The position numbers and the translations under genes were made by a program. A stretch of DNA of 64,000 bases from positions 19,754 to 83,753 of the IMG/VR virus record IMGVR_UViG_3300035703_000053; one strand, 5' to 3'. This DNA is from a virus. A model generated the notes under the pieces. That model searched no databases. It saw only the letters and a program-made list of their open reading frames with translations, and was not told the origin of the DNA. Below are positions 33,701 to 46,254 of this stretch, one piece after another; the stretch's first letter is position 1, and every line of letters begins with the position of its first letter.

Positions 33701-34055
33701 TGGTAGGTGCGGGCGCTTGGGGAATAGGCTCTGCTGCTGCACGCCTCACTGCAGCACCACTGAGGTCAACAGTGGCTGGTTTTACGGCAGAGGCTGCAGC
33801 TTGAGCAGGGGGAGTACCGCGTAAAAAACGAGTGGCGCCATACGCACCAGCCCCTAAGCCAGCTAAAGCAGCTCCTACGCCCAGAGCTTGGGCCAAATTA
33901 AAACCTTGGTTTTCCTCTTGGGACGGAGATTTGAGTTGATTACGACGAAATGCCAGGACCTCAGGGGCCATTTGAGCCTGTTCTTCCGGATCACGGGGGA
34001 TTGGTGCTCCAGTGGCGCGGCTATATGCGTAGAAATCGGCCTGAGATAACGCCAT
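30768..34055 (-). CDS. 1095-aa low-complexity protein, putative internal virion protein
   Basis: First gene of the leftward arm; P/A/Q/G-rich; no recognisable catalytic motif. Confidence 0.7.
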   Translation of the reverse strand: MALSQADFYAYSRATGAPIPRDPEEQAQMAPEVLAFRRNQLKSPSQEENQGFNLAQALGVGAALAGLGAGAYGATRFLRGTPPAQAAASAVKPATVDLSGAAVRRAAAEPIPQAPAPTKSAGLPVVRPSTPPPAPRIQSRQPAEGFSPRAYVESTGSLAEIPQGQATKLPKRANQPGSFADLTEIQNNLLAQTRDQLANAVESGEDQVTGRIKTQLQRNEDYDMSQIETLEDDVAEKQHLMMQEAQPSQMSGYEPGTAINQVASQLPDGLPTDQIENFAQSPGAEQRKISGFKTFSQQAEAISAEAAAQKAAAWALATQRSKAPKNARALQVMGPSHGLTQEEIFHRISASASDYRPGSMEPLTQLDVAALLDPTVPTKNVKDLLGTTLAVRGGRVGRNLDYEVMAEGGGMTERNAGEGIVGEFGSDVYAYNPTTGQFEIDTTADLEDLNLNRGRGTDYEANAADYGDVEGPGGFVLTKGFQERTKSGTTTVPGQISESSGALPGSMRQEREIDRVLPARETLEGDPAAGWTFDPQTGRAYLTGTGTRNKETRTNIAGKPIRIVDTKTGRVRSLGSYQGSITVDDPSYDPTSGGKLLGRYQPATSEPSSEITTQPVTKYMTAQERLIQDEKGNWYVNQAKTKVAGEQPLRGRVGADPNLRDISLNRNELNGVLNNAAEMWSAQGGGSALERQTYLIQSLDNYLKTSKQITLPVLQQNEKRYLSSAAFDFINNIQPGLKETNIYVKPAKVNEQGRPLVNRKTFKTGQIRETPIVDPEYINMEAVPLPGKTKVSGAGGVSAQEVDTETYEGPLTFFAERNEMAPQRLQPGAGRPAVNEPGSVGSRPYLETPPVGFPVKSPGSFARTQNPYTGAAAAAMGPASRVNTGDYQYPNQQLRVNLEPRSGSQLEQLNQFALTANLTPGGRVSRGGLQLGGGMGAIPAGVGTLSESQTISRYGVTGSQLQEAGNRLMAQAAYKRGMQPGPTSATPPPQQGPSSPPLQAPAPMPTERKTPMSTEMAGYARRNATIPQGISPEQARADAVARHIGNYISAAAERMEGPASIQGVKLKGVGQNALRPYQAPSEGMIQQLMRSALRR

Positions 34056-34157
34056 TTGGTTTTATTACGTATATTTTGATCTGTTGTCATTCTATTGTTG
34101 ACAAATCTGGGGAATAGAGGAGTTATATTAAAAGAAATAGCTTTGATTACGCACCAG

Positions 34158-34373
34158 ATGGACGCTGGTACCAGGCAAAAACGAATTGAAGCCCTAGAAG
34201 CGATTAAAAACAACGCTCTTAAGTTGGCACGTGAGGGGCGTGACTCGTTGGAAGTGCGTGATTTTGTAACAGAAGCTAAAAAAGAATTGGCATATGAGCT
34301 TCCCGATGAAGAAGCTTTTGTAAAAGCAAAGAATGCAACATTGGCCTATAAGAGGGCAAAAGAGGAAAAATAA
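34158..34373 (+). CDS. small helical protein
   Basis: ATG 34158 (MDAGTRQK); followed by terminator. Confidence 0.55.
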   Translation: MDAGTRQKRIEALEAIKNNALKLAREGRDSLEVRDFVTEAKKELAYELPDEEAFVKAKNATLAYKRAKEEK

Positions 34374-34492
34374 AATTTTTAAAATTTGTAAAAAATAAAA
34401 ATAAAACAAGGGCAAGTTAGGGTTTAAAGTTAGGGAATATTGGATATTTTACCGACATAAATTAGTTTTTAGTTAATTTTTAATGTTGTGCG

Positions 34493-34512
34493 GCCCAAGT
34501 ATGGGCTTTTTT
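34493..34512 (+). terminator. intrinsic terminator
   Basis: GCCCA-AGTA-TGGGC-TTTTTT. Confidence 0.6.
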
Positions 34513-34645
34513 ATTACCTATTTGTAGTTAGGGCGGCCCCTATAGGGCCCAAATAGGATTAAAAATTACCTGACGCTTCTCCAACCAGCTAACCGAAGTG
34601 GAATGTGGGAAGAAAAAAAAGAATAGGTGAGTGGTTGAATATTGT

Positions 34646-34675
34646 ACGGGGGCTGCGCATCCGTTAATAACGCAG
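34646..34675 (+). ncRNA. H-type pseudoknot, family A copy 1
   Basis: ACGGG/TCCGT and CTGCG/CGCAG; repeated at 35068. Confidence 0.6.
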
Positions 34676-34697
34676 AGTTCTACCACAGGTTAGTTCA

Positions 34698-34934
34698 ATG
34701 ACTGAGCGTGTGAAGCGTTTTGAGAGGGCAGCGAGCATGTTGGTTGCTGGCTGTAAGGTTAGCGTGTTGGTAAGTGAGTTACCGCAGGGTAACGTGCAAG
34801 CATGGCTAGCTGAATTGAAAGGTTACGTAATGTTTGGTCACACTGATCCAGGGGATGAGTGGATTTATAAAGTTTACGTTACTGTGAAGAACGGTCGAGC
34901 AGTAGCGCAGGCGAAAGTAGTGTACGTTAATTGA
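34698..34934 (+). CDS. early hypothetical protein
   Basis: Starts 22 nt after family A element. Confidence 0.6.
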   Translation: MTERVKRFERAASMLVAGCKVSVLVSELPQGNVQAWLAELKGYVMFGHTDPGDEWIYKVYVTVKNGRAVAQAKVVYVN

Positions 34935-35067
34935 GGATAAGTTGGTTTAATCCGACATTATCTGATAAGTAATTGTACTTACTTGTCAATTGTCAGCGTT
35001 TCCTGACACGACTTTTCGGCTACCCGGCGCGAGGCTTGCGGGAAAGACCGTGTGACAGCTGGTAGTA

Positions 35068-35095
35068 ACGGGGGCTGCGCATCCGTACAACGCAG
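35068..35095 (+). ncRNA. H-type pseudoknot, family A copy 2
   Basis: Same stems as copy 1; loop 3 differs (ACAA vs TAATAA). Confidence 0.6.
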
Positions 35096-35118
35096 AACAT
35101 TCCATCGCATTCAACGCA

Positions 35119-35295
35119 ATGATTTATTCGGTATGCATTAAGAGTTCGTTGTCGTATCAAGATTTCTTGTTTGCCAAAACATTGTATAGCTCAGTAGAGA
35201 AAGAGTTTTCTACTGAGCAACAAGCTCAACAATATATCCAATCTTTTGAAGATTGGGAGCGTAACTATTTACATATAGAAGTGTTTCCGTTCTAA
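35119..35295 (+). CDS. early hypothetical protein (58 aa, not in track)
   Basis: MIYSVCIKSS...EVFPF; starts 23 nt after element. Confidence 0.55.
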   Translation: MIYSVCIKSSLSYQDFLFAKTLYSSVEKEFSTEQQAQQYIQSFEDWERNYLHIEVFPF

Positions 35296-35303
35296 GTTTT
35301 AAC

Positions 35304-35369
35304 GCCTGATGGTGCAGGAAGGGTTCGACTCCCTTCCCAGGCATTGCCCCCAGCGGAGATGGGCACCGC
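35304..35369 (+). ncRNA. T-loop module (family B1) plus pseudoknot (family C1)
   Basis: GCCTG..GGAAGGG-TTCGACT-CCCTTCC-CAGGC, then TGCCC/GGGCA and GCGG/CCGC. Confidence 0.65.
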
Positions 35370-35385
35370 ACAACAGGAGTTTCCT

Positions 35386-35481
35386 GTGGACTACACACCA
35401 GTCGGTCAGGTTATTGCACCTTACGTTTCACTGGTTGCAATATTCATTGCTGCCTTTGTAATAGGTTACGTAACCGACTGA
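35386..35481 (+). CDS. 31-aa hydrophobic peptide (not in track)
   Basis: AGGAG RBS, GTG start, one predicted TM segment; stop lies inside B2. Confidence 0.5.
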   Translation: MDYTPVGQVIAPYVSLVAIFIAAFVIGYVTD

Positions 35482-35549
35482 TCCGTATAAGCGGGTGACC
35501 AGGTGCAAACCCTGGTCCAGTTATTGCCCCCAGCGGAGATGGGCACCGC
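35476..35549 (+). ncRNA. tRNA-like three-way junction (B2) plus pseudoknot (C2)
   Basis: GACTG/CAGTT, CCG/CGG, GACCAGG-TGCAAAC-CCTGGTC; C2 identical to C1. Confidence 0.7.
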
Positions 35550-35566
35550 ACAATCCACTGCAAAGC

Positions 35567-35782
35567 ATGTACATCATCTTTGTTAATGGCGAACAGCATA
35601 GCTGCTATGGCTCTAACGAATACGTTGAGGCCATAGAAGAAGCTGCTCAGCTGGACCACATGTACAACTCACCTGAGTTGAACGGTGGCGTCCAGGGCGC
35701 CACAGCGGTCGAGATTCTGACTGTATCAGGCAGGATACTGTCTGATGCAGAGCTTGATGCTCGTGCAGCTATGGCTGACTAA
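35567..35782 (+). CDS. early hypothetical protein
   Basis: ATG 35567 (MYIIFVNG) after C2. Confidence 0.6.
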   Translation: MYIIFVNGEQHSCYGSNEYVEAIEEAAQLDHMYNSPELNGGVQGATAVEILTVSGRILSDAELDARAAMAD

Positions 35783-35856
35783 CTGATCCGTACACACGGA
35801 CTGGGAGGTGTGAGCCCTCCCTCAGTTATTGCCCGACCGTAGGGATGGGCTCCTAC
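35781..35856 (+). ncRNA. tRNA-like three-way junction (B3) plus pseudoknot (C3)
   Basis: AACTGA/TCAGTT, TCCGT/ACGGA, GGGAGG-TGTGAGC-CCTCCC; GCCC/GGGC and GTAGG/CCTAC are compensatory relative to C1/C2. Confidence 0.7.
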
Positions 35857-35860
35857 ACAC

Positions 35861-36157
35861 ATGGAGTTATCCATGGATTTGACTACAGGTTGGCAGCAAC
35901 ATCCCAACGTGCCTGGTGGTTACCACCTGGTTTACGTTGATGATCTGGTCGGTGACTTATCCATTGTTACTGGACCGAGAGGTTCAGGGCTAATGGCATC
36001 TAACGACCCAGGTCAGGAACCTACTTATGAAGTGTGGTTTCCAGGGATGGCTGATCCAACCGGTCACCTAACACTTGATGAGATCAAAGGGATCATCAAG
36101 TACATGCGTCAACGTGAGCAGGAGCGTATGAACTACTGCTACAACGAAGACAACTGA
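35861..36157 (+). CDS. early hypothetical protein
   Basis: 98 aa (or ATG 35873 with GGAG); stop lies inside B4. Confidence 0.6.
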   Translation: MELSMDLTTGWQQHPNVPGGYHLVYVDDLVGDLSIVTGPRGSGLMASNDPGQEPTYEVWFPGMADPTGHLTLDEIKGIIKYMRQREQERMNYCYNEDN

Positions 36158-36220
36158 TCCGTATAAGCGGGAGGCAGGGTGCAAACCCCTGCCCAGTTAT
36201 TGCCAACCACTGAGGTTGGC
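36152..36220 (+). ncRNA. tRNA-like three-way junction (B4) plus hairpin
   Basis: AACTG/CAGTT, CCG/CGG, GGCAGGG-TGCAAAC-CCCTGCC, then ATT-GCCAACC/GGTTGGC. Confidence 0.7.
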
Positions 36221-36231
36221 TTGCAAACACA

Positions 36232-36405
36232 ATGGGCATTCGCAAAACTTTGGCCAATGCACTTAACTCGACAGCAGCAATGCTGGAGAGTGACACATCT
36301 AAAGAGTACATCAGCGCCAAGCTGAGTGAGTACCGTATCCGTGCGGCAGCAATCATGATGCCAAAGGATATGGCATTCATCATTACTCCTAAGACAGACA
36401 TTTGA
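36232..36405 (+). CDS. early hypothetical protein (57 aa, not in track)
   Basis: MGIRKTLANAL...PKTDI after B4. Confidence 0.55.
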   Translation: MGIRKTLANALNSTAAMLESDTSKEYISAKLSEYRIRAAAIMMPKDMAFIITPKTDI

Positions 36406-36436
36406 TCTCAACAGTCAACTTAATTCAATTCAGCTT

Positions 36437-36664
36437 ATGTTTATCTATCAACCAAAGGATGCACTTGATCGTGTCGTATGGTATGGAGGTGAATCTACTC
36501 AGCTCCACTATGAGCAGGAAGTAGATGGATGGGACGGCAATCCTGATTGGATTGAACGTTCAGTTCGTACTCTTGGTGGTGGTATACCAGCGGGAGTATC
36601 TGAACTACAAGCCGAGCTTGTGGATTATTACAACTACTGTCAGTGCGCAGTTAACTACGATTGA
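36437..36664 (+). CDS. early hypothetical protein
   Basis: 75 aa. Confidence 0.6.
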   Translation: MFIYQPKDALDRVVWYGGESTQLHYEQEVDGWDGNPDWIERSVRTLGGGIPAGVSELQAELVDYYNYCQCAVNYD

Positions 36665-36665
36665 C

Positions 36666-36723
36666 TCCTGTAATTAACCCTTTGCTTTGGCAGAGGGTTT
36701 CCTACAGGATTCAACAATCCTGT
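36666..36723 (+). ncRNA. long hairpin with alternative 3' hairpin, family D1
   Basis: TCCTGTA/TACAGGA and AACCCT/AGGGTT; alternative ACAGGATT/AATCCTGT. Confidence 0.65.
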
Positions 36724-36748
36724 CACTCAACTCAACTAGGACTCAACA

Positions 36749-36988
36749 ATGACTCCTGCATACGTTGAACGGCTACTTACACAAGATGCTCGACTGCTTG
36801 CCAGGAGAGATTCCCCTGCCATTGACCAAGATCTTGAGCAGCAGCGTCAAGCTGCACTCGAAATCTTTTTCAAATGGCAGGATGATGCCTGTCAATTTGA
36901 AGACGTTATACCGTTCTGTGTTGTGCTCCAGCGCAAAGTAAATCTCAATCGAGATTTGCTACGTTGGGAACGCCAGAACGCAGACTGA
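36749..36988 (+). CDS. early hypothetical protein
   Basis: 79 aa between D1 and D2. Confidence 0.6.
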   Translation: MTPAYVERLLTQDARLLARRDSPAIDQDLEQQRQAALEIFFKWQDDACQFEDVIPFCVVLQRKVNLNRDLLRWERQNAD

Positions 36989-36989
36989 C

Positions 36990-37060
36990 TTCTGTACTTA
37001 ACCTTCCGTTGATATGAATTCGTATCGGCGGTAGGTTTTCTACAGGACTCAACATCCTGT
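36990..37060 (+). ncRNA. family D2
   Basis: TTCTGTA/TACAGGA, AACCT/AGGTT, longer apical stem; alternative ACAGGA/TCCTGT. Confidence 0.65.
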
Positions 37061-37103
37061 CACCAGTACATACGTACTACCAATCCAATTCAACACAACG
37101 GTC

Positions 37104-37523
37104 ATGTTTAGCAACACCATTATCGGTCGCGTTGTTTACATGGAGCCTGCCGTGCATGAAGGTAGGGAATTCCTGGCTATCAAGCTGGCAGTATCCGATA
37201 TCTCTGGCAACGAGATCCGTATTAAATTCAACAACTCGAACGGGTTGTTTACTGCGTACAAGAATGGCACACTCGTTATTGGTCACCAGCTAATCCTTAC
37301 TCAGTTCGACGTTCGTCTTAATAGCATTCGTACGCATTACCTCAAAGATGGCCTGCTTCATCAGCTGAGGTATCCGGAGATTGCACTGACGAAGGTCAGA
37401 GCTTTTATGGGTTCAGCTCCAAGGCAGAAGGCAGAAGTGCCTCATGCCTACACCGATAACCAACAGGTGGAAGAGCTGACACCATACGGTGGCGAACCAA
37501 CGCTAGAGACTGTACCGTTCTGA
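37104..37523 (+). CDS. OB-fold / SSB-like protein
   Basis: NTIIGRVV start and acidic ...ETVPF C-terminus. Confidence 0.5.
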   Translation: MFSNTIIGRVVYMEPAVHEGREFLAIKLAVSDISGNEIRIKFNNSNGLFTAYKNGTLVIGHQLILTQFDVRLNSIRTHYLKDGLLHQLRYPEIALTKVRAFMGSAPRQKAEVPHAYTDNQQVEELTPYGGEPTLETVPF

Positions 37524-37524
37524 A

Positions 37525-37592
37525 GTCTGCACTTAACCCTTCTGTCGAGAGACAGTGGGTTTTCTGCAGACATCTCACCGCAGGTGTCTGTA
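37525..37592 (+). ncRNA. family D3
   Basis: GTCTGCA/TGCAGAC, AACCC/GGGTT; alternative TGCAGACATCT/AGGTGTCTGTA. Confidence 0.65.
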
Positions 37593-37611
37593 CTATCCAT
37601 CAGCTCAACTT

Positions 37612-37815
37612 ATGAAACATGTAATCAAGCTCAAGCCTAAACACTATGTTCACCTCGATTCTTACGGTGAGTCTCATGAGACTCGCGGTAGTGAGGTGAT
37701 TGTCCTGGCCTTGGGTATACTCATCAGTGCACTCACCGTAGGTGCATTACTTGGCACTGATATTACTCAACCTACTCAACAGAACCATGGCAATTCACAT
37801 CGCACTGATCGTTGA
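37612..37815 (+). CDS. small membrane protein
   Basis: ATG 37612; predicted TM segment VIVLALGILISALTVGALL. Confidence 0.55.
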   Translation: MKHVIKLKPKHYVHLDSYGESHETRGSEVIVLALGILISALTVGALLGTDITQPTQQNHGNSHRTDR

Positions 37816-38014
37816 TGCTACTGGCCGCTATGCCCATGTTTGGGGAGAAGCTTCAAGTTGGGATGACTTCATTGACCAACTTGAAGAACTAGGCGCAGAA
37901 GTAATTGAAGAACAAACTTCTGATTGGGAAGGTTATACCAAGGAAGAGATAGATGAAGATTGTATTTCAATTGGTAAGTTATTAATTGATACAGACTTTG
38001 TACCTTATGAATAG
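37787..38014 (+). CDS. early acidic hypothetical protein
   Basis: ATG 37787 (MAIHIAL). Confidence 0.55.
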   Translation: MAIHIALIVDATGRYAHVWGEASSWDDFIDQLEELGAEVIEEQTSDWEGYTKEEIDEDCISIGKLLIDTDFVPYE

Positions 38015-38058
38015 GCCACCCATAACTGGAGTGGAATGACTCCAGATTTGAGTAGGCT

Positions 38059-38103
38059 CCCCCTGGCCCCCGGCCAACAGCCAGCACCAGGGATATGGCT
38101 GTT
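38059..38103 (+). ncRNA. pseudoknot, family F copy 1
   Basis: CCCTGG/CCAGGG and AACAGCCA/TGGCTGTT around CCCCCGGC. Confidence 0.5.
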
Positions 38104-38169
38104 TAGTGTTTGACTTTACTTTATTAAGTATTTGAGTATTTGAAGTTTATTCAATTTACTTATATGGAT

Positions 38170-38196
38170 GGACCTGAGCATGTCCTTAAACTGCTC
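38170..38196 (+). ncRNA. 27-nt H-type pseudoknot, family E1
   Basis: GGAC-CT-GAGCA-T-GTCC-TTAAAC-TGCTC. Confidence 0.75.
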
Positions 38197-38219
38197 AGCA
38201 AACTTATCTATTACACACC

Positions 38220-38492
38220 ATGACTACACTTGAAGATTTTGCACAAGAAAACGCTATATATCCTTGGCTTGCCAATGATTGTATGGCGGATAATGCTTTA
38301 GATCAGAACTACAACGCTGACTTGCTTGATTCCATGGCTGACATGGCCTACGAACAAGAGCAAGCCATGCGTGAATCAAATGAAGATGACTGGACCCTTG
38401 TAGATCGAACCGATGGAATTGTATCGGTAGATCTACTTAATGGCTATGTAAACTTATTTGAAGACATTATCCATGATGACGAAACACACTGA
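38220..38492 (+). CDS. early acidic hypothetical protein
   Basis: Starts 23 nt after E1. Confidence 0.6.
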   Translation: MTTLEDFAQENAIYPWLANDCMADNALDQNYNADLLDSMADMAYEQEQAMRESNEDDWTLVDRTDGIVSVDLLNGYVNLFEDIIHDDETH

Positions 38493-38561
38493 TCCCACAA
38501 TGGATGACATAATTATTGTCATCCTTGCAATCATTTCAATCATCATTACTGAACTAATCTC

Positions 38562-38918
38562 ATGCTTCACCCCATCACTCAAGAAATCGCTGCAACCTTC
38601 GGGTACCAACCCTTCGACTCAGAAGAAGGTCAGCAGCAGTACCAAGCAGAGTGCGACTTCCAGAACGCACCAAAGGGAGCAATCCCCTGCACTGGTAACG
38701 TCTACAGAAACAAGCAGGGAGTCCTGCGTTGTTACTGGATTCCAGCCGGAGGTAACTACTCGGCCCAAGACAAGGAGGAACTCGAAGGCTGGTACGACAT
38801 CCCAAGCAACGAAGATATCGAGGAGTGGGTGTTCGACAGCATCTGTTTCACACCAGCAGATGATGAAGTAGAACCAGACCACCCTGATAGCTGGCTCTCA
38901 ATCCTTGGATTGATTTAA
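38562..38918 (+). CDS. hypothetical phage protein
   Basis: PSNEDIEEWVFDSIC.TP..DEVEPDHP.SWLSILGLI C-terminus. Confidence 0.65.
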   Translation: MLHPITQEIAATFGYQPFDSEEGQQQYQAECDFQNAPKGAIPCTGNVYRNKQGVLRCYWIPAGGNYSAQDKEELEGWYDIPSNEDIEEWVFDSICFTPADDEVEPDHPDSWLSILGLI

Positions 38919-39014
38919 CCTATGTCATATAACGCAAGTGTAATGATGACATATGCCATTCGCGAATAGCGAATATGTAAGTACCAGGGGTATTGCCAGA
39001 TAACCACTGGCCTA

Positions 39015-39054
39015 CCCCCTGCACCCCCGGCAGAAGTACCAGGAGATAACTTCT
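39015..39054 (+). ncRNA. pseudoknot, family F copy 2
   Basis: CCTG/CAGG and AGAAGT/ACTTCT around CCCCCGGC. Confidence 0.5.
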
Positions 39055-39087
39055 ATTAGTAAATAACCTAACCAATGCATTAAGCCA

Positions 39088-39420
39088 ATGGCACAAACCA
39101 AATCATCTCAACGTAAACAACAACCATCTCCTGATTACCCTCAAGGTAAGCACACAGTTACATTCACAGACATAGATGAAGAAGATTGGTGGTTAATCAC
39201 AAACTTATTCAAAGGACGTATTGATTACTTTAATCAACGTTTACAAGAAATTCAACATTCTAAAGATCCGGATTTAATACGGAGAAACACAGAGTGGCTA
39301 GAAGAAACAATAGAACGTTTGGAGATTAGACTACATCAGTTCGAAGATCAGATCAGTCCTACATACTTTAAGCGTAAGCGTGCAGAACATGCCGCTCGCA
39401 TAAAGCAACCAAACATTTAA
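39088..39420 (+). CDS. hypothetical protein
   Basis: 110 aa. Confidence 0.6.
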   Translation: MAQTKSSQRKQQPSPDYPQGKHTVTFTDIDEEDWWLITNLFKGRIDYFNQRLQEIQHSKDPDLIRRNTEWLEETIERLEIRLHQFEDQISPTYFKRKRAEHAARIKQPNI

Positions 39421-39491
39421 ACACTGGGCATTCATGTATATACATGTTGTAAGTCCCAGGGGGTTTAGAAATTACTCAACACACTCTTGTC

Positions 39492-39818
39492 ATGACAAAC
39501 AAAGTCTTGAAGTTTGAACCAACCATCTATAAGAAATCAGATGGTACAGAGGTTGTATTCCAAGTCAATGATTCCACACGCATTGACATGATCATTACAG
39601 AACTACAAGCTATCTATGCACGTGAACAGAAACGTGACTTGATGGCACTGCACCTTCCATATGAAGCACCTGAGCTGCTGCTGGAAGCCATTGGTCTGCT
39701 TGAGAAAGCAACTGAGTGGGGTGAACCAACAGACGATGATCTATGTGGTGAGCCACCAGTGACCATGGCTGAGATGCACTCAGCTGCATGGAAGGAACAT
39801 CAAGAAGCACACCGGTAA
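39492..39818 (+). CDS. hypothetical protein
   Basis: 108 aa; GEPPVTMAEMH..AW.EH C-terminus. Confidence 0.6.
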   Translation: MTNKVLKFEPTIYKKSDGTEVVFQVNDSTRIDMIITELQAIYAREQKRDLMALHLPYEAPELLLEAIGLLEKATEWGEPTDDDLCGEPPVTMAEMHSAAWKEHQEAHR

Positions 39819-39928
39819 CCATTCACATACCGCAAGGTTAAGAACTGGTTAACACAGTGGTCATGGCTTGACACCACCCGGTAGACTGGCCGTGACCACA
39901 CACTCAACCTCTACAAAACCTACATTAA

Positions 39929-40132
39929 ATGTCCGACAAAATCAGCATTCCAAACTCAATCAACTCCAACAATCTTGCTGCAATGCAACTTGTAGCCAAG
40001 ATGAAAGAGTCTGCAGACAAGCATGGTATTGGCTTCATTGGGGGATTTATATCTCCCGATGGAGAGAAATTTATTATGACGAATATGGATGATGAAGATT
40101 CCCAGGCCTTGCTGCCTGAGAATCTTAAGTGA
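39929..40132 (+). CDS. hypothetical protein
   Basis: 67 aa. Confidence 0.55.
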   Translation: MSDKISIPNSINSNNLAAMQLVAKMKESADKHGIGFIGGFISPDGEKFIMTNMDDEDSQALLPENLK

Positions 40133-41742: not shown

Positions 41743-43422
41743 ATGGAATTTCAACTGCCATCTAACCTCAAGACTGAGCTAATCCCTTATGATGCCACGC
41801 TTAAGCAGCTGGCTAAACTTACCAAACAACCTGGTACTAAAGCAGCTAAGCCTAAGTACCCACTTGGTAATGTTAACGATTTAATTCCTGAAGACATTGT
41901 TGATCCTGCTGTATTGCAACAAGTTGTTGATCGCATCAACAATGTTTATGCACAAGATCGTTGCCATACGTTTAGACCAACAGACGAAGGTGTTAAATCA
42001 ACAGCTATCTTGTATCACTACGAACAACTGTGGATAGCTGCGTGGCTACCACCTGAGGGTGAAGAGAATGTATATGTATATGGATATGCTTATGCATTTA
42101 AAGATACAGAATCTGCACGTAAATTAAATCGTGACTTGATTGCTAATAATCAAATTGATACATTTAACAAGGTTAGTTACGGTCGCAGTCAATTCTTTGT
42201 ACGTAAACGTTACGTCACTGTAGATGATATTAAGAATGGTGATGACATACGTAATTGGAATCATAAATATATGTCATATGGTAAAGGTATAAACATTCGT
42301 CCTACTGTTATTTACTTTGAGAACGCATTGCGTCAAACAATTCCGCAATGGCAGGACTCACGTTATATTTTTGAGCGTCTTAAAGATTCATCTATTCTTA
42401 ATGTGTTGTTTGAAGGTAGGGGACAAGTTGATTCATACTTTAAAGATAAGCGTAATAGCTGGTTGCCTAGTGCCAGTGCAGTCATTGATCTGCTTGACAA
42501 CAATATTATTAACTTATCTCCAGCACCTGCTAATACTATTCGTCACATTGTAGATAAACCATTTTTCCGTAAGTGGATTCAACAACAGTGTGATGAAGTG
42601 CTAGCTATTTATAACAACAAAGATAATAAATCACGCAAGGCTATTCAACGTCCGTGGAACATAATTACTTTATTGTTTAATCGTCTTGCATATGTCAATA
42701 GGATTTGGCCTGACTGCCCTATTGATTACTACCAAAATAATATTGATACACTACTGACAATAGACTTTGGTTATTTTTCCAATAGGGCAGTTGATTATTG
42801 GCTGAATACATACATGCCAGTTGCTTCATTCTTTAATATTCTTAACAAGTTTAAAGAACAGAATACTAGTAACGGTTATACAAACAATGAGACAGGTTTG
42901 ACAATTGCCACTCTATATAATTGGCGTGACACATATCAAATGCTTGGTCAGATTCTTAGCGCTGACAAAACTATTGAACCACCACGTCGTTGGCGTCTCA
43001 ATGAATTCCATGATCATGTACAAGCAGAAGCATGGAAAATCCAACATCCTAATAGTTCATTGCCCCAGGATTTATTCCCTGCTCCAGTACGTATTACATA
43101 CAACGAACAGACCTGGTCATTCTTTCAGCCTATTGATACACATCAACTATCTAGCTGGGGTCAGGCTGTACGTAACTGCGTTGGTAATGCATCTAGCTAT
43201 GCAGAAGGTGTACGCAAGAAGAAACACTTTATTGTTCTGTGTATCATTGATGGCAAACCAACATTTACTGTGCAGCTCACCGTTGATAACGGCATGATGT
43301 CTGTCACGCAGATTGTTGGTACATCTAATGCCAGGCTTAGCTCTGATCAGCAAGCTGAATACACAGAAGCCTTCCGCCTTGCCTTGCAAGCACGGGAATC
43401 TGAGCTAGGATCAAAGGGTTGA
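41743..43422 (+). CDS. PcfJ-like domain protein
   Basis: C-terminal L.EFHD...P.DTHQLSSWGQAVRNCVG..SYA...Q..G..N; ATG 41743 preferred. Confidence 0.7.
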   Translation: MEFQLPSNLKTELIPYDATLKQLAKLTKQPGTKAAKPKYPLGNVNDLIPEDIVDPAVLQQVVDRINNVYAQDRCHTFRPTDEGVKSTAILYHYEQLWIAAWLPPEGEENVYVYGYAYAFKDTESARKLNRDLIANNQIDTFNKVSYGRSQFFVRKRYVTVDDIKNGDDIRNWNHKYMSYGKGINIRPTVIYFENALRQTIPQWQDSRYIFERLKDSSILNVLFEGRGQVDSYFKDKRNSWLPSASAVIDLLDNNIINLSPAPANTIRHIVDKPFFRKWIQQQCDEVLAIYNNKDNKSRKAIQRPWNIITLLFNRLAYVNRIWPDCPIDYYQNNIDTLLTIDFGYFSNRAVDYWLNTYMPVASFFNILNKFKEQNTSNGYTNNETGLTIATLYNWRDTYQMLGQILSADKTIEPPRRWRLNEFHDHVQAEAWKIQHPNSSLPQDLFPAPVRITYNEQTWSFFQPIDTHQLSSWGQAVRNCVGNASSYAEGVRKKKHFIVLCIIDGKPTFTVQLTVDNGMMSVTQIVGTSNARLSSDQQAEYTEAFRLALQARESELGSKG

Positions 43423-43464
43423 AGCCAACAGCCAGCATCCTCGTCACTGCTGGCTTTCATTCTT

Positions 43465-43716
43465 ATGTCAGGGTCCATTGCTCCAGGTGCAGACGATGAT
43501 CAACAGCCACTATCAGTGGAGGATCAACGGCTGCTTGCAATGGCCCTGGCCAACCTTGGTCAATACATTCATGACAACTCACCACACTATGAGTTGATTG
43601 AAGATCCAAGGAACGATGATGACTATGACACCTGGGAGGTGGGTATGGAACCACTACCAGGTGATCATACTTGGCGGTCTAATTCCATAGACGTAAGTCC
43701 AAGTAACGGGGTGTGA
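43465..43716 (+). CDS. acidic hypothetical protein
   Basis: 83 aa; stop overlaps the tRNA 5' end. Confidence 0.45.
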   Translation: MSGSIAPGADDDQQPLSVEDQRLLAMALANLGQYIHDNSPHYELIEDPRNDDDYDTWEVGMEPLPGDHTWRSNSIDVSPSNGV

Positions 43717-43792
43717 TGAAATTAGAAACCATGACTGACTTAAAATCAGTTGGCCTTTGGCCTTGCAGGTGCAAGTCCTGTCACCCCGACCA
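43707..43792 (+). tRNA. tRNA-Leu(TAA), with non-canonical D and T loops
   Basis: Acceptor CGGGGTG/CACCCCG plus ACCA; anticodon arm ACTGA-CTTAAAA-TCAGT; variable arm GGCC/GGCC; T arm GCAGG-TGCAAGT-CCTGT. Confidence 0.8.
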
Positions 43793-43813
43793 CTTACATA
43801 CTTAACTCAAACC

Positions 43814-44176
43814 ATGAACATCTTTGCTTGTTTCAAACACATTGTTCCAGAGTTCCATGCATACAGTGATGAAGACAAACGCTACAACATCGGTGCTACA
43901 TGGACTGGGCAAGATGGTTTGCATGACTATCATAATATTGAATTGAAGTATGTCCATAACTCTGAGCGTCTTGCGCTTCAGGGTGATCCACAACCTGATG
44001 GTAGCTGGAAGTATGTAGAACCCAATGGCAATGTCCATATCATTAGCGCTGAGCGTGCCAAGCATTTCATGGAAGCTACGCAACACAACGCAACAATCAT
44101 GTGCAACATGCTTGACCGCCTCAGAGACTTAGGTGTGACTGGTGAGACACTGGACACCAGTGCTGAACCCGTCTAG
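43814..44176 (+). CDS. hypothetical protein
   Basis: ATG 43814 directly after tRNA. Confidence 0.6.
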   Translation: MNIFACFKHIVPEFHAYSDEDKRYNIGATWTGQDGLHDYHNIELKYVHNSERLALQGDPQPDGSWKYVEPNGNVHIISAERAKHFMEATQHNATIMCNMLDRLRDLGVTGETLDTSAEPV

Positions 44177-44247
44177 TATTCATGTGGAATGTTCAGGCCC
44201 CGGTGCAAGCCGGGGTCTTTCTCTATGACACAACCCAACTTAAAACC

Positions 44248-44619
44248 ATGACACAACAACATCCCATAACCCCACCGCCGGAGCTGGTGCAGCAGTGGGA
44301 AGCTGACTGGCATTGTTCCGGCAATACAAACGGAGACGGATTTACGCGTTTTGTTGCGACTTGCGCTGCCCAATGGGGAGCCGACATGGAGCTGGCGGCC
44401 TGTTGCAGACAACTTACGGATCCCAAGTGGTACGACGAAATCAAGAACTTGCGTGGGCCTTTCCGCGCAGCAGAACTCCGCGCCGCCCGCCGCCCCAAGC
44501 CTCAAACGTTGAACAGTATTGCCTTGCAAATGCTGGGCACCATTGAGCGCGACGCGCACTACTTACCCGAGATCACCGACACCATTCGCCGCGCACTTAA
44601 CCAGCTTTCTGATAGCTAA
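44248..44619 (+). CDS. hypothetical phage protein
   Basis: HPITPPPELVQQW...AAQWGAD.EL.ACC pattern; GC-rich. Confidence 0.65.
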   Translation: MTQQHPITPPPELVQQWEADWHCSGNTNGDGFTRFVATCAAQWGADMELAACCRQLTDPKWYDEIKNLRGPFRAAELRAARRPKPQTLNSIALQMLGTIERDAHYLPEITDTIRRALNQLSDS

Positions 44620-44626
44620 CATTACT

Positions 44627-45094
44627 ATGGAATTGACACTACTAGAGGTCCACCGTTTTTGGTCAAAGGTTGATGTAGTGACAGCCGATATGTGCTGGCA
44701 GTGGACTGGCTACTGCCTTCCGTTTGGCCATGGCCAGGCTTGGCTACAGGGAAAAACTTTTTTATCCCACCGTGTCGCTTACTCCTTGGCACAAGGACAA
44801 GTGCCTCCAAAGTTGCATGTTCGCCACCTTTGCGACAACCCTTGCTGTTGCAATCCTGCTCATCTTGCGCTTGGATCAGATCAGGATAATTCAGACGATA
44901 AATGTCGACAAGGTAGGCAGGCCCGTGGCTCTGGCAATGGGCGGTCAAAGCTTTCCGATCAAGAGGTGCTATGTATCTATAAATCAAGCAAGACACAAGA
45001 GGAGCTTGCATCGGAATTTGGCATACACCAATCAATGGTGAGTCGCATTAAGAACGGTGTTTACTGGAATTGGCTAACTGGAGCAACTCGATGA
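44627..45094 (+). CDS. HNH homing endonuclease with C-terminal HTH
   Basis: RFWSKV..CWQWTG..SHRVAY..VRHLCDNP.CCNPAHL.LG..DN..D. Confidence 0.9.
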   Translation: MELTLLEVHRFWSKVDVVTADMCWQWTGYCLPFGHGQAWLQGKTFLSHRVAYSLAQGQVPPKLHVRHLCDNPCCCNPAHLALGSDQDNSDDKCRQGRQARGSGNGRSKLSDQEVLCIYKSSKTQEELASEFGIHQSMVSRIKNGVYWNWLTGATR

Positions 45095-45593: not shown

Positions 45594-45904
45594 CTGACTC
45601 AGTGCTTAATCTTGATTTAGTTGATCAGGTATTTGAACGTATACCTGAATGGACATGGACTACCGTACGTGATGCAATTGTTGCAAACCTTGTTGACAAC
45701 ATGCCAGGTGCAGTAGTTGAACGGTTGACTGGTACCTATGACAACTTTGATTTAGCTGAAAAGATTCTGATTGATTATTACTCACCAGCAGATAAATACA
45801 AAGATTTAATTGTTGATTCATTCAAGATCATTGGTGATGAAAACACTTTGTATTTATTGGATTCATTACAACTAGATAAGATTCCAGAACCAACGGAAGA
45901 CTGA
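45590..45904 (+). CDS. hypothetical protein
   Basis: 104 aa, coupled to neighbours. Confidence 0.6.
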   Translation: MTDSVLNLDLVDQVFERIPEWTWTTVRDAIVANLVDNMPGAVVERLTGTYDNFDLAEKILIDYYSPADKYKDLIVDSFKIIGDENTLYLLDSLQLDKIPEPTED

Positions 45905-46254
45905 TGCGGTGTCGTCAATGTAACAGCAGTAACACACGTGTTACATGCACAGATCATTACGGTCAATACACCAAGCGTTATTGCCGTTGTCTTGATTGCA
46001 ACCACAAGTTCAGAACCATTGAACAGTATGAAGTATTAAAGCCTGGACCTCCCAAAGGGAAGCCACGTTCTGGAAAGATTGCTCGTGGTTCCAGCCATGG
46101 GCAAGCAGTCTTTACGGAACAGGACATTCGCAACATGCGTCTTATGTACGAATCAAAAAACCATACGTTGCAAGAAATTGCAGATAAGTATGGAACCTCT
46201 AGGGCTTACGCTTCTAAGATTATTAACCGGAAGCAGTGGACTCATGTCACGTAA
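45904..46254 (+). CDS. NrdR-like zinc ribbon fused to HTH
   Basis: MRC..C....TRV..T......R.C.CL.C..KFRT.E, then LQEIADKYGTSRAYASKII. Confidence 0.7.
   Translation: MRCRQCNSSNTRVTCTDHYGQYTKRYCRCLDCNHKFRTIEQYEVLKPGPPKGKPRSGKIARGSSHGQAVFTEQDIRNMRLMYESKNHTLQEIADKYGTSRAYASKIINRKQWTHVT

What the first reader, a model, noticed from the sequence alone, without database searches (positions are those of the whole stretch)
36666..37592. Family D: three conserved bistable hairpins
Seen: each begins 1 nt after a TGA stop. Each has a 7-bp basal stem, a 3x3 pyrimidine-rich internal loop, AACC/GGTT and a variable apex. In all three the 3' basal strand can instead pair with a downstream copy of the 5' strand. 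In D3 all three strands co-vary (GTCTGCA, TGCAGAC, GTCTGTA). Known: T7 early mRNA is cut by RNase III at internal-loop hairpins. Inference: after cleavage, or when a terminating ribosome melts the basal stem, the freed strand refolds into a 5' hairpin on the next mRNA.
Basis: partly seen in the sequence, partly recalled or inferred. Interest (0 to 1): 0.72.

Follow-up and report, generated by a model that had tools for sequence, protein, structure and literature searches.

The report
Two-state RNA hairpins between cyanophage genes
Three gaps between early genes of a freshwater cyanophage each hold a conserved RNA hairpin that can swap one strand to form a second, smaller hairpin in front of the next gene; it probably marks where the long early message is cut and capped, but no cut has been shown.

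Summary
D1 (36662-36724), D2 (36986-37061) and D3 (37521-37592) are real + strand RNA hairpins. Each has a UGA stop, 1 nt, a 7-bp lower stem, a 3x3 pyrimidine-rich loop, an AACC/GGUU stem and a variable apex. A downstream 'third strand' can pair with the 3' lower strand instead.

The window is an S-EIV1-like Synechococcus phage. Among 66 distinct sense copies from 49 loci, including S-EIV1 itself:
- 66 of 66 keep a third strand.
- 63 of 66 start 1 nt after TGA.
- In 58 of 66 the next ORF's ATG lies 18-31 nt after the third strand.

Both helices covary, and mismatches are G-U rather than A-C, so selection acts on the mRNA. The long fold is favoured by a median 3.55 kcal/mol, so this is a conditional switch, not two equal states.

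Best reading (about 0.45): an intercistronic processing and stability module built like T7 RNase III sites. After a cut, the freed strand folds into a 5' hairpin on the next mRNA. Cleavage, the enzyme and the trigger are all inferred. Rivals are a ribosome-driven switch, a protein-binding site and a leaky terminator.

It matches no Rfam family. Earlier AI notes of this scan describe similar two-state hairpins in other phages. I class it as a new variant of a known kind.

The parts
36437..36664 (+). Early ORF (75 aa) whose TGA stop (36662-36664) forms the base of D1
   Evidence: ORF list. No Pfam or PHROG match.
36662..36713 (+). D1 long hairpin: UGA, 1 nt, 7-bp lower stem (36666-36672 with 36703-36709), AUU/UCC 3x3 loop, 10-bp upper stem with UUUG loop (36676-36699). 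UCA (36711-36713) can pair with UGA.
   Evidence: -29.0 kcal/mol, z -5.7. Covariance model: 53.2 bits.
36704..36723 (+). D1 alternative small hairpin: the 3' lower strand pairs with third strand TCCTGTC (36718-36724). Folded as 8 bp, ACAGGAUU/AAUCCUGU.
   Evidence: -8.6 kcal/mol in the 5'-truncated RNA, z -4.3.
36725..36748 (+). G-poor C/A-rich leader of the next gene (ATG at 36749)
36749..36988 (+). Early ORF (79 aa) whose TGA stop (36986-36988) forms the base of D2
36986..37051 (+). D2 long hairpin: lower stem TTCTGTA (36990-36996) with TACAGGA (37041-37047) including one U-G pair, CUU/UUC loop, upper stem 37000-37037 with a near-palindromic apex
   Evidence: -31.5 kcal/mol, z -6.5; the reverse strand gives only -20.8. 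Covariance model: 76.2 bits on +, 31.6 on -.
37042..37060 (+). D2 alternative small hairpin: ACAGGA with UCCUGU of third strand 37055-37061, 7-nt loop
   Evidence: -6.2 kcal/mol in the truncated RNA.
37104..37523 (+). Early ORF (139 aa) lying between D2 and D3 and conserved in relatives. Its TGA (37521-37523) forms the base of D3.
   Evidence: 9 related loci, 55-64% identity. A homologous unannotated ORF follows the S-EIV1 copy.
37521..37575 (+). D3 long hairpin: lower stem GTCTGCA (37525-37531) with TGCAGAC (37565-37571), CUU/UUC loop, upper stem 37535-37561
   Evidence: -30.5 kcal/mol, z -4.1. Covariance model: 59.1 bits.
37565..37592 (+). D3 alternative hairpin: 11 bp, UGCAGACAUCU with AGGUGUCUGUA, 6-nt loop. 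The third strand GTCTGTA is at 37586-37592.
   Evidence: -14.3 kcal/mol, z -4.3.
37612..37815 (+). Next early ORF (67 aa from the first ATG), starting 19 nt after the D3 third strand

Best explanation
D1-D3 are copies of a conserved intercistronic RNA module in the early operon of S-EIV1-like cyanophages.

Proposed mechanism:
1. In the uncut polycistronic transcript the module folds into a long hairpin. Its base contains the upstream gene's UGA stop. A conserved 3x3 internal loop splits the helix into a lower stem and an upper stem.
2. An endonucleolytic cut is made in or near the 3' side of that loop. The most likely enzyme is a host RNase III, as at phage T7 early-mRNA sites.
3. The cut leaves the upper hairpin as a 3' cap on the upstream mRNA and frees the 3' lower strand.
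4. The freed strand pairs with the downstream third strand. This forms a 6-11-bp hairpin at the new 5'-monophosphate end, followed by an unstructured, G-poor leader of about 25 nt and the next start codon.
5. The result is one module giving two protected monocistronic mRNAs.

Shown here: the two mutually exclusive folds, their selection on the + strand RNA, and their fixed placement relative to the stop and start codons.

Inferred: that a cut happens, that RNase III makes it, where it falls, and that the small hairpin protects against 5'-end-dependent RNases.
For: 1. Both helices are kept by evolution.
- Of 98 pattern matches in IMG/VR, 67 have the lower stem.
- In a looser scan, 66 distinct sense copies from 49 loci all have a downstream 7-mer with at least 6 contiguous pairs to the 3' strand: 66 of 66, of which 35 have 7. 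The reverse-complement control gives 11 of 57.
- Third strand with 3' strand: 93.4% of cells paired, against 84.6 +/- 0.9 in 2000 shuffles (0 reach it) and 28-52% when slid by 1-3 nt.
- At the variable positions the third strand tracks the 3' strand: A-T 29, G-C 13, C-G 9, T-G 1, and 2 mismatches.
- Long hairpin: RNAalifold predicts the same stems. Pairs 5-66, 6-65, 10-61 and 19-52 show changes on both sides.

2. Selection acts on the + strand RNA, not on DNA repeats.
- Lower-stem cells: 422 Watson-Crick, 33 G-U, 2 A-C.
- Third-strand cells: 412 Watson-Crick, 19 G-U, 3 A-C.
- The 5' and third strands are identical in only 10 of 54 combinations. All their differences at positions 2, 3 and 6 are C/T opposite a G.
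- The model scores 53-76 bits on the + strand and at most 32 on the - strand.

3. Placement is fixed.
- 63 of 66 copies start 1 nt after TGA, against 60 of 136 TGA stops genome-wide.
- 53 of those 63 TGAs close an ORF of at least 40 codons, or one open to the locus end.
- The next ORF's ATG lies 18-31 nt after the third strand in 58 of 66.
- Leaders are 5.9% G, against 22.5% in the region.

4. Energies fit a triggered switch.
- Median -27.7 (long fold) against -24.45 kcal/mol (upper hairpin plus small hairpin).
- Median difference 3.55, range -1.3 to +10.

5. The anatomy matches T7-type RNase III signals.
- A helix of about two turns with an internal loop, between early cistrons.
- T7 R0.5 and R1 hairpins also begin at a UGA stop (cut positions recalled).
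- Passages of PMC1540722 state that internal loops limit RNase III cleavage to one strand and leave protective 3' hairpins.

6. The enzyme is available in the host group.
- PF14622 rings in Synechococcus elongatus, while the phage has none.
- Passages of PMC10989914 state that all sequenced cyanobacteria have RNase III genes, that two PCC 7002 enzymes cleave many E. coli RNase III substrates, and that for most RNase E substrates cleavage is efficient only with a 5'-monophosphate end.

7. The copies cluster.
- 19 of 20 related records (14 of 14 that are at least 90% complete) hold 1-4 matches within about 2 kb.
Against: - No cleavage product, RNA end or enzyme dependence has been observed for any copy.
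- In 20 of 66 copies the upper stem has only 5-7 bp. This is below the 11 bp between cut site and loop that E. coli RNase III needs on its minimal substrate (PMC1540722 passage). Recognition would then have to use the lower stem or the whole interrupted helix.
- The strong sequence conservation (CUGCA, CUU, AACCC, GGGUU, UUC, and a shared 16-nt apex palindrome) exceeds what is known for RNase III and fits a sequence-specific binder.
- The outermost pair of the small hairpin is missing in 28 of 66 copies. A cut at the start of the 3' loop would then leave about 4 unpaired nt.
- The 66 copies are related by descent and many are orthologs, so the shuffle statistics overstate independence. Only 8 different 3'-strand sequences occur.
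- The pattern used to collect most copies fixed many columns.
Confidence: 0.45

Rival explanations
1. A ribosome-driven switch with no cleavage. Each ribosome that terminates at the UGA unwinds the lower stem, which starts 1 nt downstream. The freed 3' strand is captured by the third strand, so the stop-codon region stays open, or the structure of the next gene's leader reports that the upstream gene is being translated.
For: - The element starts 1 nt after TGA in 63 of 66 copies, and TGA is strongly over-represented.
- The lower stem plus loop (1+7+3 nt) is about what a ribosome at a stop codon would cover. This length is from general knowledge and was not tested here.
- The energy gap between the two states is small, median 3.55 kcal/mol.
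Against: - Neither state covers the next start codon. The small hairpin ends 18-31 nt upstream of the ATG in 58 of 66 copies, so switching has no obvious translational target.
- An SD-like motif that the third strand could mask is present in only 12 of 55 leaders.
- T7 RNase III hairpins R0.5 and R1 also begin at a UGA, so that placement does not argue against processing.
Confidence: 0.17
2. A binding site for a sequence-specific protein, either a phage early protein or a host factor other than RNase III. Examples would be a translational repressor, an antitermination factor or another endonuclease. The third strand would act as a competitor that sets the fraction of binding-competent hairpin.
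For: Primary sequence is conserved well beyond what pairing requires.
- 22 invariant columns in 45 sequences.
- The loops are CTT in 47 of 66 and TTC in 51 of 66 copies.
- A 16-nt apex palindrome is shared by many copies in different genomes.
- The flanking early proteins have no known family, so an RNA-binding protein could be among them.
Against: - Part of the apparent sequence conservation was imposed by the search pattern.
- Divergent copies found through the model or through the neighbouring protein replace AACCC/GGGUU with AGGGCC/GGCCUU or AGGGGC/GCCCUU, and CUU/UUC with CUG/CUC or UCA/UCU, yet keep the three-strand layout. Architecture is therefore better conserved than sequence.
- No candidate binder was identified.
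Confidence: 0.15
3. A leaky intrinsic terminator or attenuator. The G+C-rich upper stem followed by UUUUCU stops a fraction of RNA polymerases after each early gene and grades expression along the operon. The outer strands act only on read-through transcripts.
For: - The terminator scan flagged the D2 and D3 upper stems with tails TAGGTTTTCT and TGGGTTTTCT.
- 48 of 66 copies have a run of 4 or 5 T right after the last G-C pair of the upper stem.
- I recall that cyanobacteria lack Rho and rely on intrinsic terminators. This was not checked here.
Against: - 18 of 66 copies have T runs of 3 or fewer.
- The clear terminator in this window (34492-34507) has six T in a row.
- The 3' strand and the third strand lie downstream of any termination point yet are conserved and covary. 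The read-through RNA therefore carries the selected function.
- T7 RNase III sites have similar U-rich 3' sides.
Confidence: 0.1
4. A DNA-level element: a repeat used for recombination and cassette exchange, a small mobile element with a duplicated target, or a DNA hairpin used by a polymerase.
For: - Near-identical copies sit in front of different genes, and the gene after the D3-equivalent appears to differ between relatives.
- PeSL cassettes of T4-type phages are a precedent for repeated intergenic elements at mosaic junctions (PMC2839356 and PMC4122927, search listing only).
Against: - Mismatches are G-T, not A-C: 52 against 5 over both helices. That makes sense only for + strand RNA.
- The two direct copies are identical in only 10 of 54 cases, and they differ in ways that keep pairing to the 3' strand.
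- The model scores 53-76 bits on + against at most 32 on -.
- No promoter-like site lies in 36600-37650.
- No T7-type RNA polymerase family was found in the genome, but that search's control rang nowhere, so it is weak.
Confidence: 0.05

Closest known systems
RNase III processing signals of the phage T7 early transcript (R0.3, R0.5, R1, R1.1, R1.3)
   Same: - Hairpins between cistrons of a host-polymerase early operon.
- A lower stem, an internal loop and an upper stem that starts with two A-U pairs, with a U-rich 3' side of the loop.
- R0.5 and R1 also begin at a UGA stop.
- Internal loops restrict cutting to one strand and leave a protective 3' hairpin (PMC1540722 passage).
   Different: - No sequence similarity, and the host is a cyanobacterium.
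- Cleavage is unproven here.
- The D family adds a conserved, covarying third strand that turns the freed 3' lower strand into a hairpin before the next gene. I know of no description of that for T7, and my search found none.
- The T7 cut positions used are recalled.
Bs-RNase III processing sites in early mRNA of Bacillus phages SP82/SPO1, and 5' stabiliser structures such as the ompA 5' stem-loop
   Same: - Phage early-mRNA hairpins cut by the host double-strand RNase.
- 5'-terminal hairpins protect mRNAs from 5'-end-dependent decay.
   Different: - Different hosts and sequences.
- In those cases the 5' structure is not described as arising by strand exchange out of the processing hairpin.
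Processing-triggered or RNase III-linked mRNA refolding: hok mRNA activation, lambda cIII alternative structures (recalled)
   Same: Two alternative mRNA folds whose balance is shifted by processing or by RNase III.
   Different: - Those switches gate translation of a single gene.
- Here neither fold covers the start codon, and the element is a repeated intercistronic module.
PeSL (promoter-early stem-loop) cassettes of T4-type phages (PMC2839356, PMC4122927; search listing and abstract starts only)
   Same: A repeated intergenic element flanking small accessory early genes, possibly at mosaic boundaries.
   Different: - PeSLs combine an early promoter with a stem-loop and are discussed as recombination substrates.
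- No promoter-like site lies in the D elements.
- The constraints here are on RNA pairing.
Two-state or punctuating intercistronic hairpins noted earlier by this scan in other phages (e1-1480268, e1-6172090, e1-5923809, e1-5324160)
   Same: According to those AI notes: hairpins that start at stop codons, can refold into a second small hairpin, and are followed by a fixed leader.
   Different: - They lie in other genomes and sequence families.
- The notes are unchecked and are not independent evidence.

Membership tests
T7-type RNase III processing signal | Double-helical RNA of about two turns (possibly by coaxial stacking) at the target site | tested here: met
   Lower helix of 7 bp, plus a 1x1 mismatch, plus up to 3 bp (UGA/UCA), then a 3x3 loop, then an upper stem of 5-34 bp, median 11. 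The requirement itself is from a PMC1540722 passage.
T7-type RNase III processing signal | Internal loop or bulge at the site that limits cleavage to one strand and leaves a 3' hairpin | tested here: met
   A 3x3 loop is present in 66 of 66 copies, but the scan itself required a 3-nt gap on each side. Only the structure was tested, not the cleavage pattern.
T7-type RNase III processing signal | Sits between cistrons of an early polycistronic transcript | tested here: met
   63 of 66 copies lie 1 nt after TGA. The next ATG follows 18-31 nt after the third strand in 58 of 66. All copies in a genome lie on one strand within about 2 kb. That the region is transcribed as one message is inferred.
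T7-type RNase III processing signal | Cut by RNase III in vivo or in vitro | not testable with these tools
   No RNA data were usable.
T7-type RNase III processing signal | At least 11 bp between cut site and apical loop (E. coli enzyme, minimal substrate) | tested here: inconclusive
   20 of 66 copies have upper stems of only 5-7 bp. The cut site and the rules of cyanobacterial enzymes are unknown.
Intrinsic (Rho-independent) terminator | G+C-rich stem followed directly by a U tract | tested here: inconclusive
   The T run after the stem is 4 in 47 of 66 copies, 5 in 1 and 3 or fewer in 18. The scan flags D2 and D3.
PeSL cassette | Early promoter joined to the stem-loop | tested here: not met
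   None of the 4 promoter-like sites in 34000-40000 lies within 36600-37650. Shuffled sequence gives 9.9 sites on average.
Any Rfam family, including tRNA-like elements and known ribozymes | Covariance-model match | tested here: not met
   At gathering threshold the whole window gives only a tRNA at 43707-43789. At E up to 5 over 34000-40000 there are only four chance-level rows. One weak row, P27, overlaps D1 at 17.7 bits against a gathering score of 50.
Bacterial SECIS or stop-codon read-through signal | Open reading frame continues past the UGA | tested here: not met
   Read directly. In D1 the frame hits TAA three codons after the TGA. In D2 it hits TGA eight codons later.

The most novel reading that the evidence does not exclude
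The three-strand layout is a designed 'self-capping' device. A single cut, or a terminating ribosome, triggers strand exchange. One module then becomes a 3' cap on the upstream mRNA and a 5' cap on the downstream mRNA. If the similar two-state hairpins noted by this scan in unrelated phages work the same way, this would be a general and so far undescribed principle of phage operon design.
Probability: 0.3. Interest if true: 0.72.

Novelty: new variant of a known kind. Interest (0 to 1): 0.56.

Why it matters
Phage early operons must yield stable, translatable messages in a host whose main decay enzymes attack 5'-monophosphate ends. I know of no description of a module that makes both protective ends from one hairpin by strand exchange.

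The case is also directly testable:
- A cultured relative, S-EIV1, carries a copy.
- The prediction is precise: ends at the 3' side of the internal loop, and loss of downstream mRNA stability when the third strand is broken.

The module could also serve as a compact insulator between genes in engineered cyanobacterial operons.

Tried and rejected
- RNA evidence. The look-up of sequencing runs listed no holder on record as RNA. The two low-share runs, laid, gave only a few read-length contigs and no information on ends. Nothing can be said about expression or cleavage.
- Named phages. blastn of 36300-38000 and of a consensus-like copy found no match. Only a protein search led to S-EIV1.
- Strict motif in S-EIV1. 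The strict AACC/GGTT motif finds nothing there. Its copy was found by folding the intergenic regions and by the model.
- Third-strand alignment. MAFFT did not put the third strand in register, so the count of structure pairs could not be used for that helix. I computed the counts, shuffles and slides in a script.
- Cross-element control. The 3' strand of one element was tested against the downstream DNA of elements differing at 2 or more nt. It did not discriminate, with 442 of 660 pairings still at 6 or more pairs, because the variants differ only at the ends. I used position-wise covariation instead.
- Rows dropped from the 133 (listed), 10 in all:
  - 7 chance-looking rows.
  - One copy cut by a locus end.
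  - Two genuine copies (L104:2407, L105:1901) lost to my loop filter. Both do show a perfect third strand.
- Readings rejected:
  - SECIS or read-through: in-frame stops follow.
  - Hammerhead or other known ribozymes, and tRNA mimics: no Rfam support.
  - The third strand masking the next gene's SD: seen only in D1, not conserved.
  - A phage-encoded RNase III: none found.
- T7-type RNA polymerase search. It found nothing, but its control rang nowhere, so it is not informative.
- Literature. The S-EIV1 genome paper is not held. I could not check whether it mentions these repeats. No supplements were consulted.
Full report
**What the window is.** The window is bases 19754-83753 of an 83,753-bp IMG/VR virus record rated 100% complete. 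Its 787-aa virion protein is 80% identical to one of Synechococcus phage S-EIV1, KJ410740, from a high-arctic lake. Structural and packaging genes lie on the - strand from about 5 to 34 kb. A run of small ORFs of unknown function lies on the + strand from about 34.7 kb, followed by thymidylate synthase, DNA polymerase A and SSB. The finding lies in this presumed early operon.

**The observation.** Each consists of:
- TGA, then one nucleotide;
- a 7-nt 5' strand;
- three mostly pyrimidine nucleotides;
- AACC...GGTT closing a variable upper stem;
- three pyrimidines;
- the complementary 7-nt 3' strand;
- a 7-14-nt spacer;
- a third strand that again complements the 3' strand.

The + strand RNAs fold into the long hairpin at -29.0, -31.5 and -30.5 kcal/mol. 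Their z-scores are -5.7, -6.5 and -4.1. RNAs that begin at the 3' side of the internal loop fold into the small hairpin at -8.6, -6.2 and -14.3 kcal/mol. In D3 the small hairpin is really 11 bp. The UGA can add up to 3 bp to the base by pairing with UCA after a 1x1 mismatch; 25 of 45 aligned copies have all three pairs.

**Relatives.**
- A pattern built from the conserved core found 92 IMG/VR loci. Of the 98 matches in them, 67 have a lower stem with at least 6 of 7 pairs. The other 31 look like chance.
- A covariance model built from 45 distinct copies finds exactly three strong copies in the window, all on the + strand. It also finds one copy in S-EIV1 itself, at 42668-42717 on the minus strand, 32.4 bits.
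- In 20 related records searched whole, 19 have matches, including 14 of 14 that are at least 90% complete. Each has 1-4 matches, clustered within about 2 kb.
- Loci fetched through the neighbouring 139-aa protein rather than through the RNA pattern carry divergent copies. In these the mid-stem and loop sequences are replaced (AGGGCC/GGCCUU, CUG/CUC and others), but the stop codon, lower stem and third strand remain.
- No named phage other than S-EIV1 matched.

**Both folds are selected, and on the RNA.** A loose structural scan of all held loci gave 133 distinct candidates. They divide as follows:
- 66 are sense copies, from 49 loci.
- 57 are their reverse complements.
- 10 were dropped: 7 chance-looking rows, one truncated copy, and two genuine copies lost to my filter that also show the third strand.

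Evidence for selection on both helices:
- All 66 sense copies have a downstream 7-mer with at least 6 contiguous pairs to the 3' strand. Only 11 of 57 reverse-complement controls do.
- In 54 distinct strand combinations the third-strand helix is 93.4% paired. Shuffles give 84.6 +/- 0.9 (0 of 2000 reach the observed value), and slides of 1-3 nt give 28-52%.
- Where the last base of the 3' strand is A, G, C or U, the first base of the third strand is U, C, G or G in 52 of 54 combinations.
- The lower stem behaves the same way. RNAalifold predicts it independently.
- Mismatches are almost all G-U. There are 33 and 19 in the two helices, against 2 and 3 A-C.
- The 5' and third strands are identical in only 10 of 54 cases. 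At positions 2, 3 and 6 they differ only by C/U opposite a G.

This pattern is what pairing in the + strand RNA predicts. It is not what a DNA direct repeat or a template-strand hairpin predicts.

Caveat: the copies share ancestry, only 8 different 3'-strand sequences occur, and the search pattern fixed many columns. The shuffle numbers are therefore not probabilities.

**Placement.**
- 63 of 66 copies start one nucleotide after TGA. Two have AGA and one has TAA.
- Genome-wide, TGA closes 60 of 136 crude ORFs.
- 53 of the 63 TGAs close a frame of at least 40 codons, or one open to the locus end.
- The next ORF's ATG lies 18-31 nt after the third strand in 58 of 66, median 25.
- The 55 distinct leaders are 5.9% G and 70% A+C. 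Only 12 have a GGA-containing SD-like motif.

**Energetics.** With the lower stem enforced, the median energy is -27.7 kcal/mol. With the small hairpin enforced, and the upper hairpin kept, it is -24.45. The median difference is 3.55, with a range of -1.3 to +10. In the window the differences are 4.9, 4.4 and 2.2. The long fold should therefore dominate in intact RNA. The small fold should take over once the 5' strand is removed or occupied.

**What it most likely is.** The anatomy is that of T7-type RNase III signals. I folded the T7 early intergenic regions (cut positions recalled). They show a lower stem, an internal loop, an upper stem beginning with two A-U pairs and a U-rich 3' loop side. 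R0.5 and R1 also begin at a UGA stop.

Passages of PMC1540722 state that E. coli substrates have about two helical turns. They also state that internal loops limit cleavage to one phosphodiester, and that this leaves protective 3' hairpins.

The phage encodes no RNase III, and the family rings in Synechococcus elongatus. Passages of PMC10989914 state that all sequenced cyanobacteria carry RNase III genes. They add that two Synechococcus PCC 7002 enzymes cut many E. coli RNase III substrates. [quoted passage not shown]

A cut on the 3' side of the loop would leave the 3' lower strand as a 5'-monophosphate tail on the next mRNA. The third strand tucks that tail into a hairpin. This gives the third strand a purpose that none of the rivals supplies, because neither fold covers the start codon. 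The neighbouring junctions at 35780 and 36155, and one in S-EIV1, also place a separate hairpin just ahead of the next leader. That fits the same design, though I did not quantify it.

**What speaks against it, and the rivals.**
- Nothing shows cleavage.
- Twenty of 66 copies have upper stems of only 5-7 bp. That is short by the E. coli 11-bp rule.
- Sequence conservation is high for an RNase III site, and a sequence-specific binder remains possible.
- A ribosome terminating at the UGA would also free the 3' strand. That trigger cannot be excluded and may coexist with cleavage.
- The upper stem followed by UUUUCU resembles a weak intrinsic terminator. However, 18 of 66 copies have T runs of 3 or fewer, and the conserved strands lie beyond any termination point.
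- DNA-level readings fit poorly with the G-U bias and the strand asymmetry.

**Novelty.**
- No Rfam family matches.
- The searches listed no paper on such elements in cyanophages, or on cleavage-triggered formation of a 5' hairpin. Those searches cover only the held library, and the S-EIV1 genome paper is not held.
- The scan's own earlier notes describe similar two-state hairpins in other phages. These are unchecked leads, not support.
- I class the finding as a new variant of a known kind: phage intercistronic processing and stability hairpins.

Noticed in passing
window 35459-35569, 35780-35863, 36155-36234; S-EIV1 record about 43417-43498 and 43730-43845 (minus strand): A second junction family begins at or near the stop codon (TGATCCGT...GCGG, then a stem with a GGTGCAAACCC-type loop, then CAGTTATTGCC). 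At 35780, 36155 and S-EIV1 43498 a separate hairpin follows just before the next leader. The family is conserved in S-EIV1.
   Followed up: partly
window about 34650-34690 and 35070-35105; S-EIV1 intergenic region 44029-44708, minus strand, just upstream of the early gene that starts at 44031: A third conserved element (GGGGCTGCGCATC.GT...ACGCAG) sits just upstream of the first two early genes of the window. It also precedes the first early gene of S-EIV1.
   Followed up: no
leaders after D-type elements, e.g. window 36725-36748, 37062-37103, 37593-37611: The leaders are strikingly G-poor (5.9% G) and rich in TCAAC/TCAATTCAAC repeats. Only 12 of 55 have an SD-like motif, which suggests SD-independent initiation.
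   Followed up: partly
window 37008-37023 and many related loci (e.g. L083, L006, L027): A 16-nt perfect palindrome containing an EcoRI site forms the apex of many copies in different genomes. D2 carries a one-base variant that gives a G-U pair. Conservation exceeds what pairing needs.
   Followed up: no
window 37104-37523; S-EIV1 record 42386-42715 (annotation gap): The 139-aa early protein between D2 and D3 is conserved in 9 related loci. An unannotated homologous ORF follows the S-EIV1 copy. It has no Pfam, PHROG or PDB match. Its pattern and its C-terminal ...VPF remind me of small SSB/OB-fold proteins; that is recall and untested.
   Followed up: partly
L097-L105, downstream of the D3-equivalent: The gene that follows the element downstream of the 139-aa homolog appears to differ between relatives (starts read MPVTIDHK, MKNSYKMK, MKHVIKLK). 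D elements may therefore mark mosaic boundaries.
   Followed up: no
window 45904-46254: A small ORF has weak MarR (Pfam E 3.6e-4, below cut-off) and HNH-endonuclease PHROG hits. A paper listed (PMC9692554, title and abstract start only) reports a cyanophage MarR-type factor that induces host RNase E.
   Followed up: no
window 34492-34507: A canonical-looking intrinsic terminator (GGCCC...GGGCT followed by TTTTTT) lies in the divergent region upstream of the early genes.
   Followed up: no
window 43707-43789: A tRNA gene lies in the early/middle region (Rfam 47.8 bits).
   Followed up: no
T7 NC_001604 5850-5925 (L106): In the minimum-energy fold of the T7 R1.1 region, the sequence just 3' of the recalled cut pairs with a downstream stretch to form a 7-bp hairpin. 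This is reminiscent of the D third strand. It may be chance.
   Followed up: no
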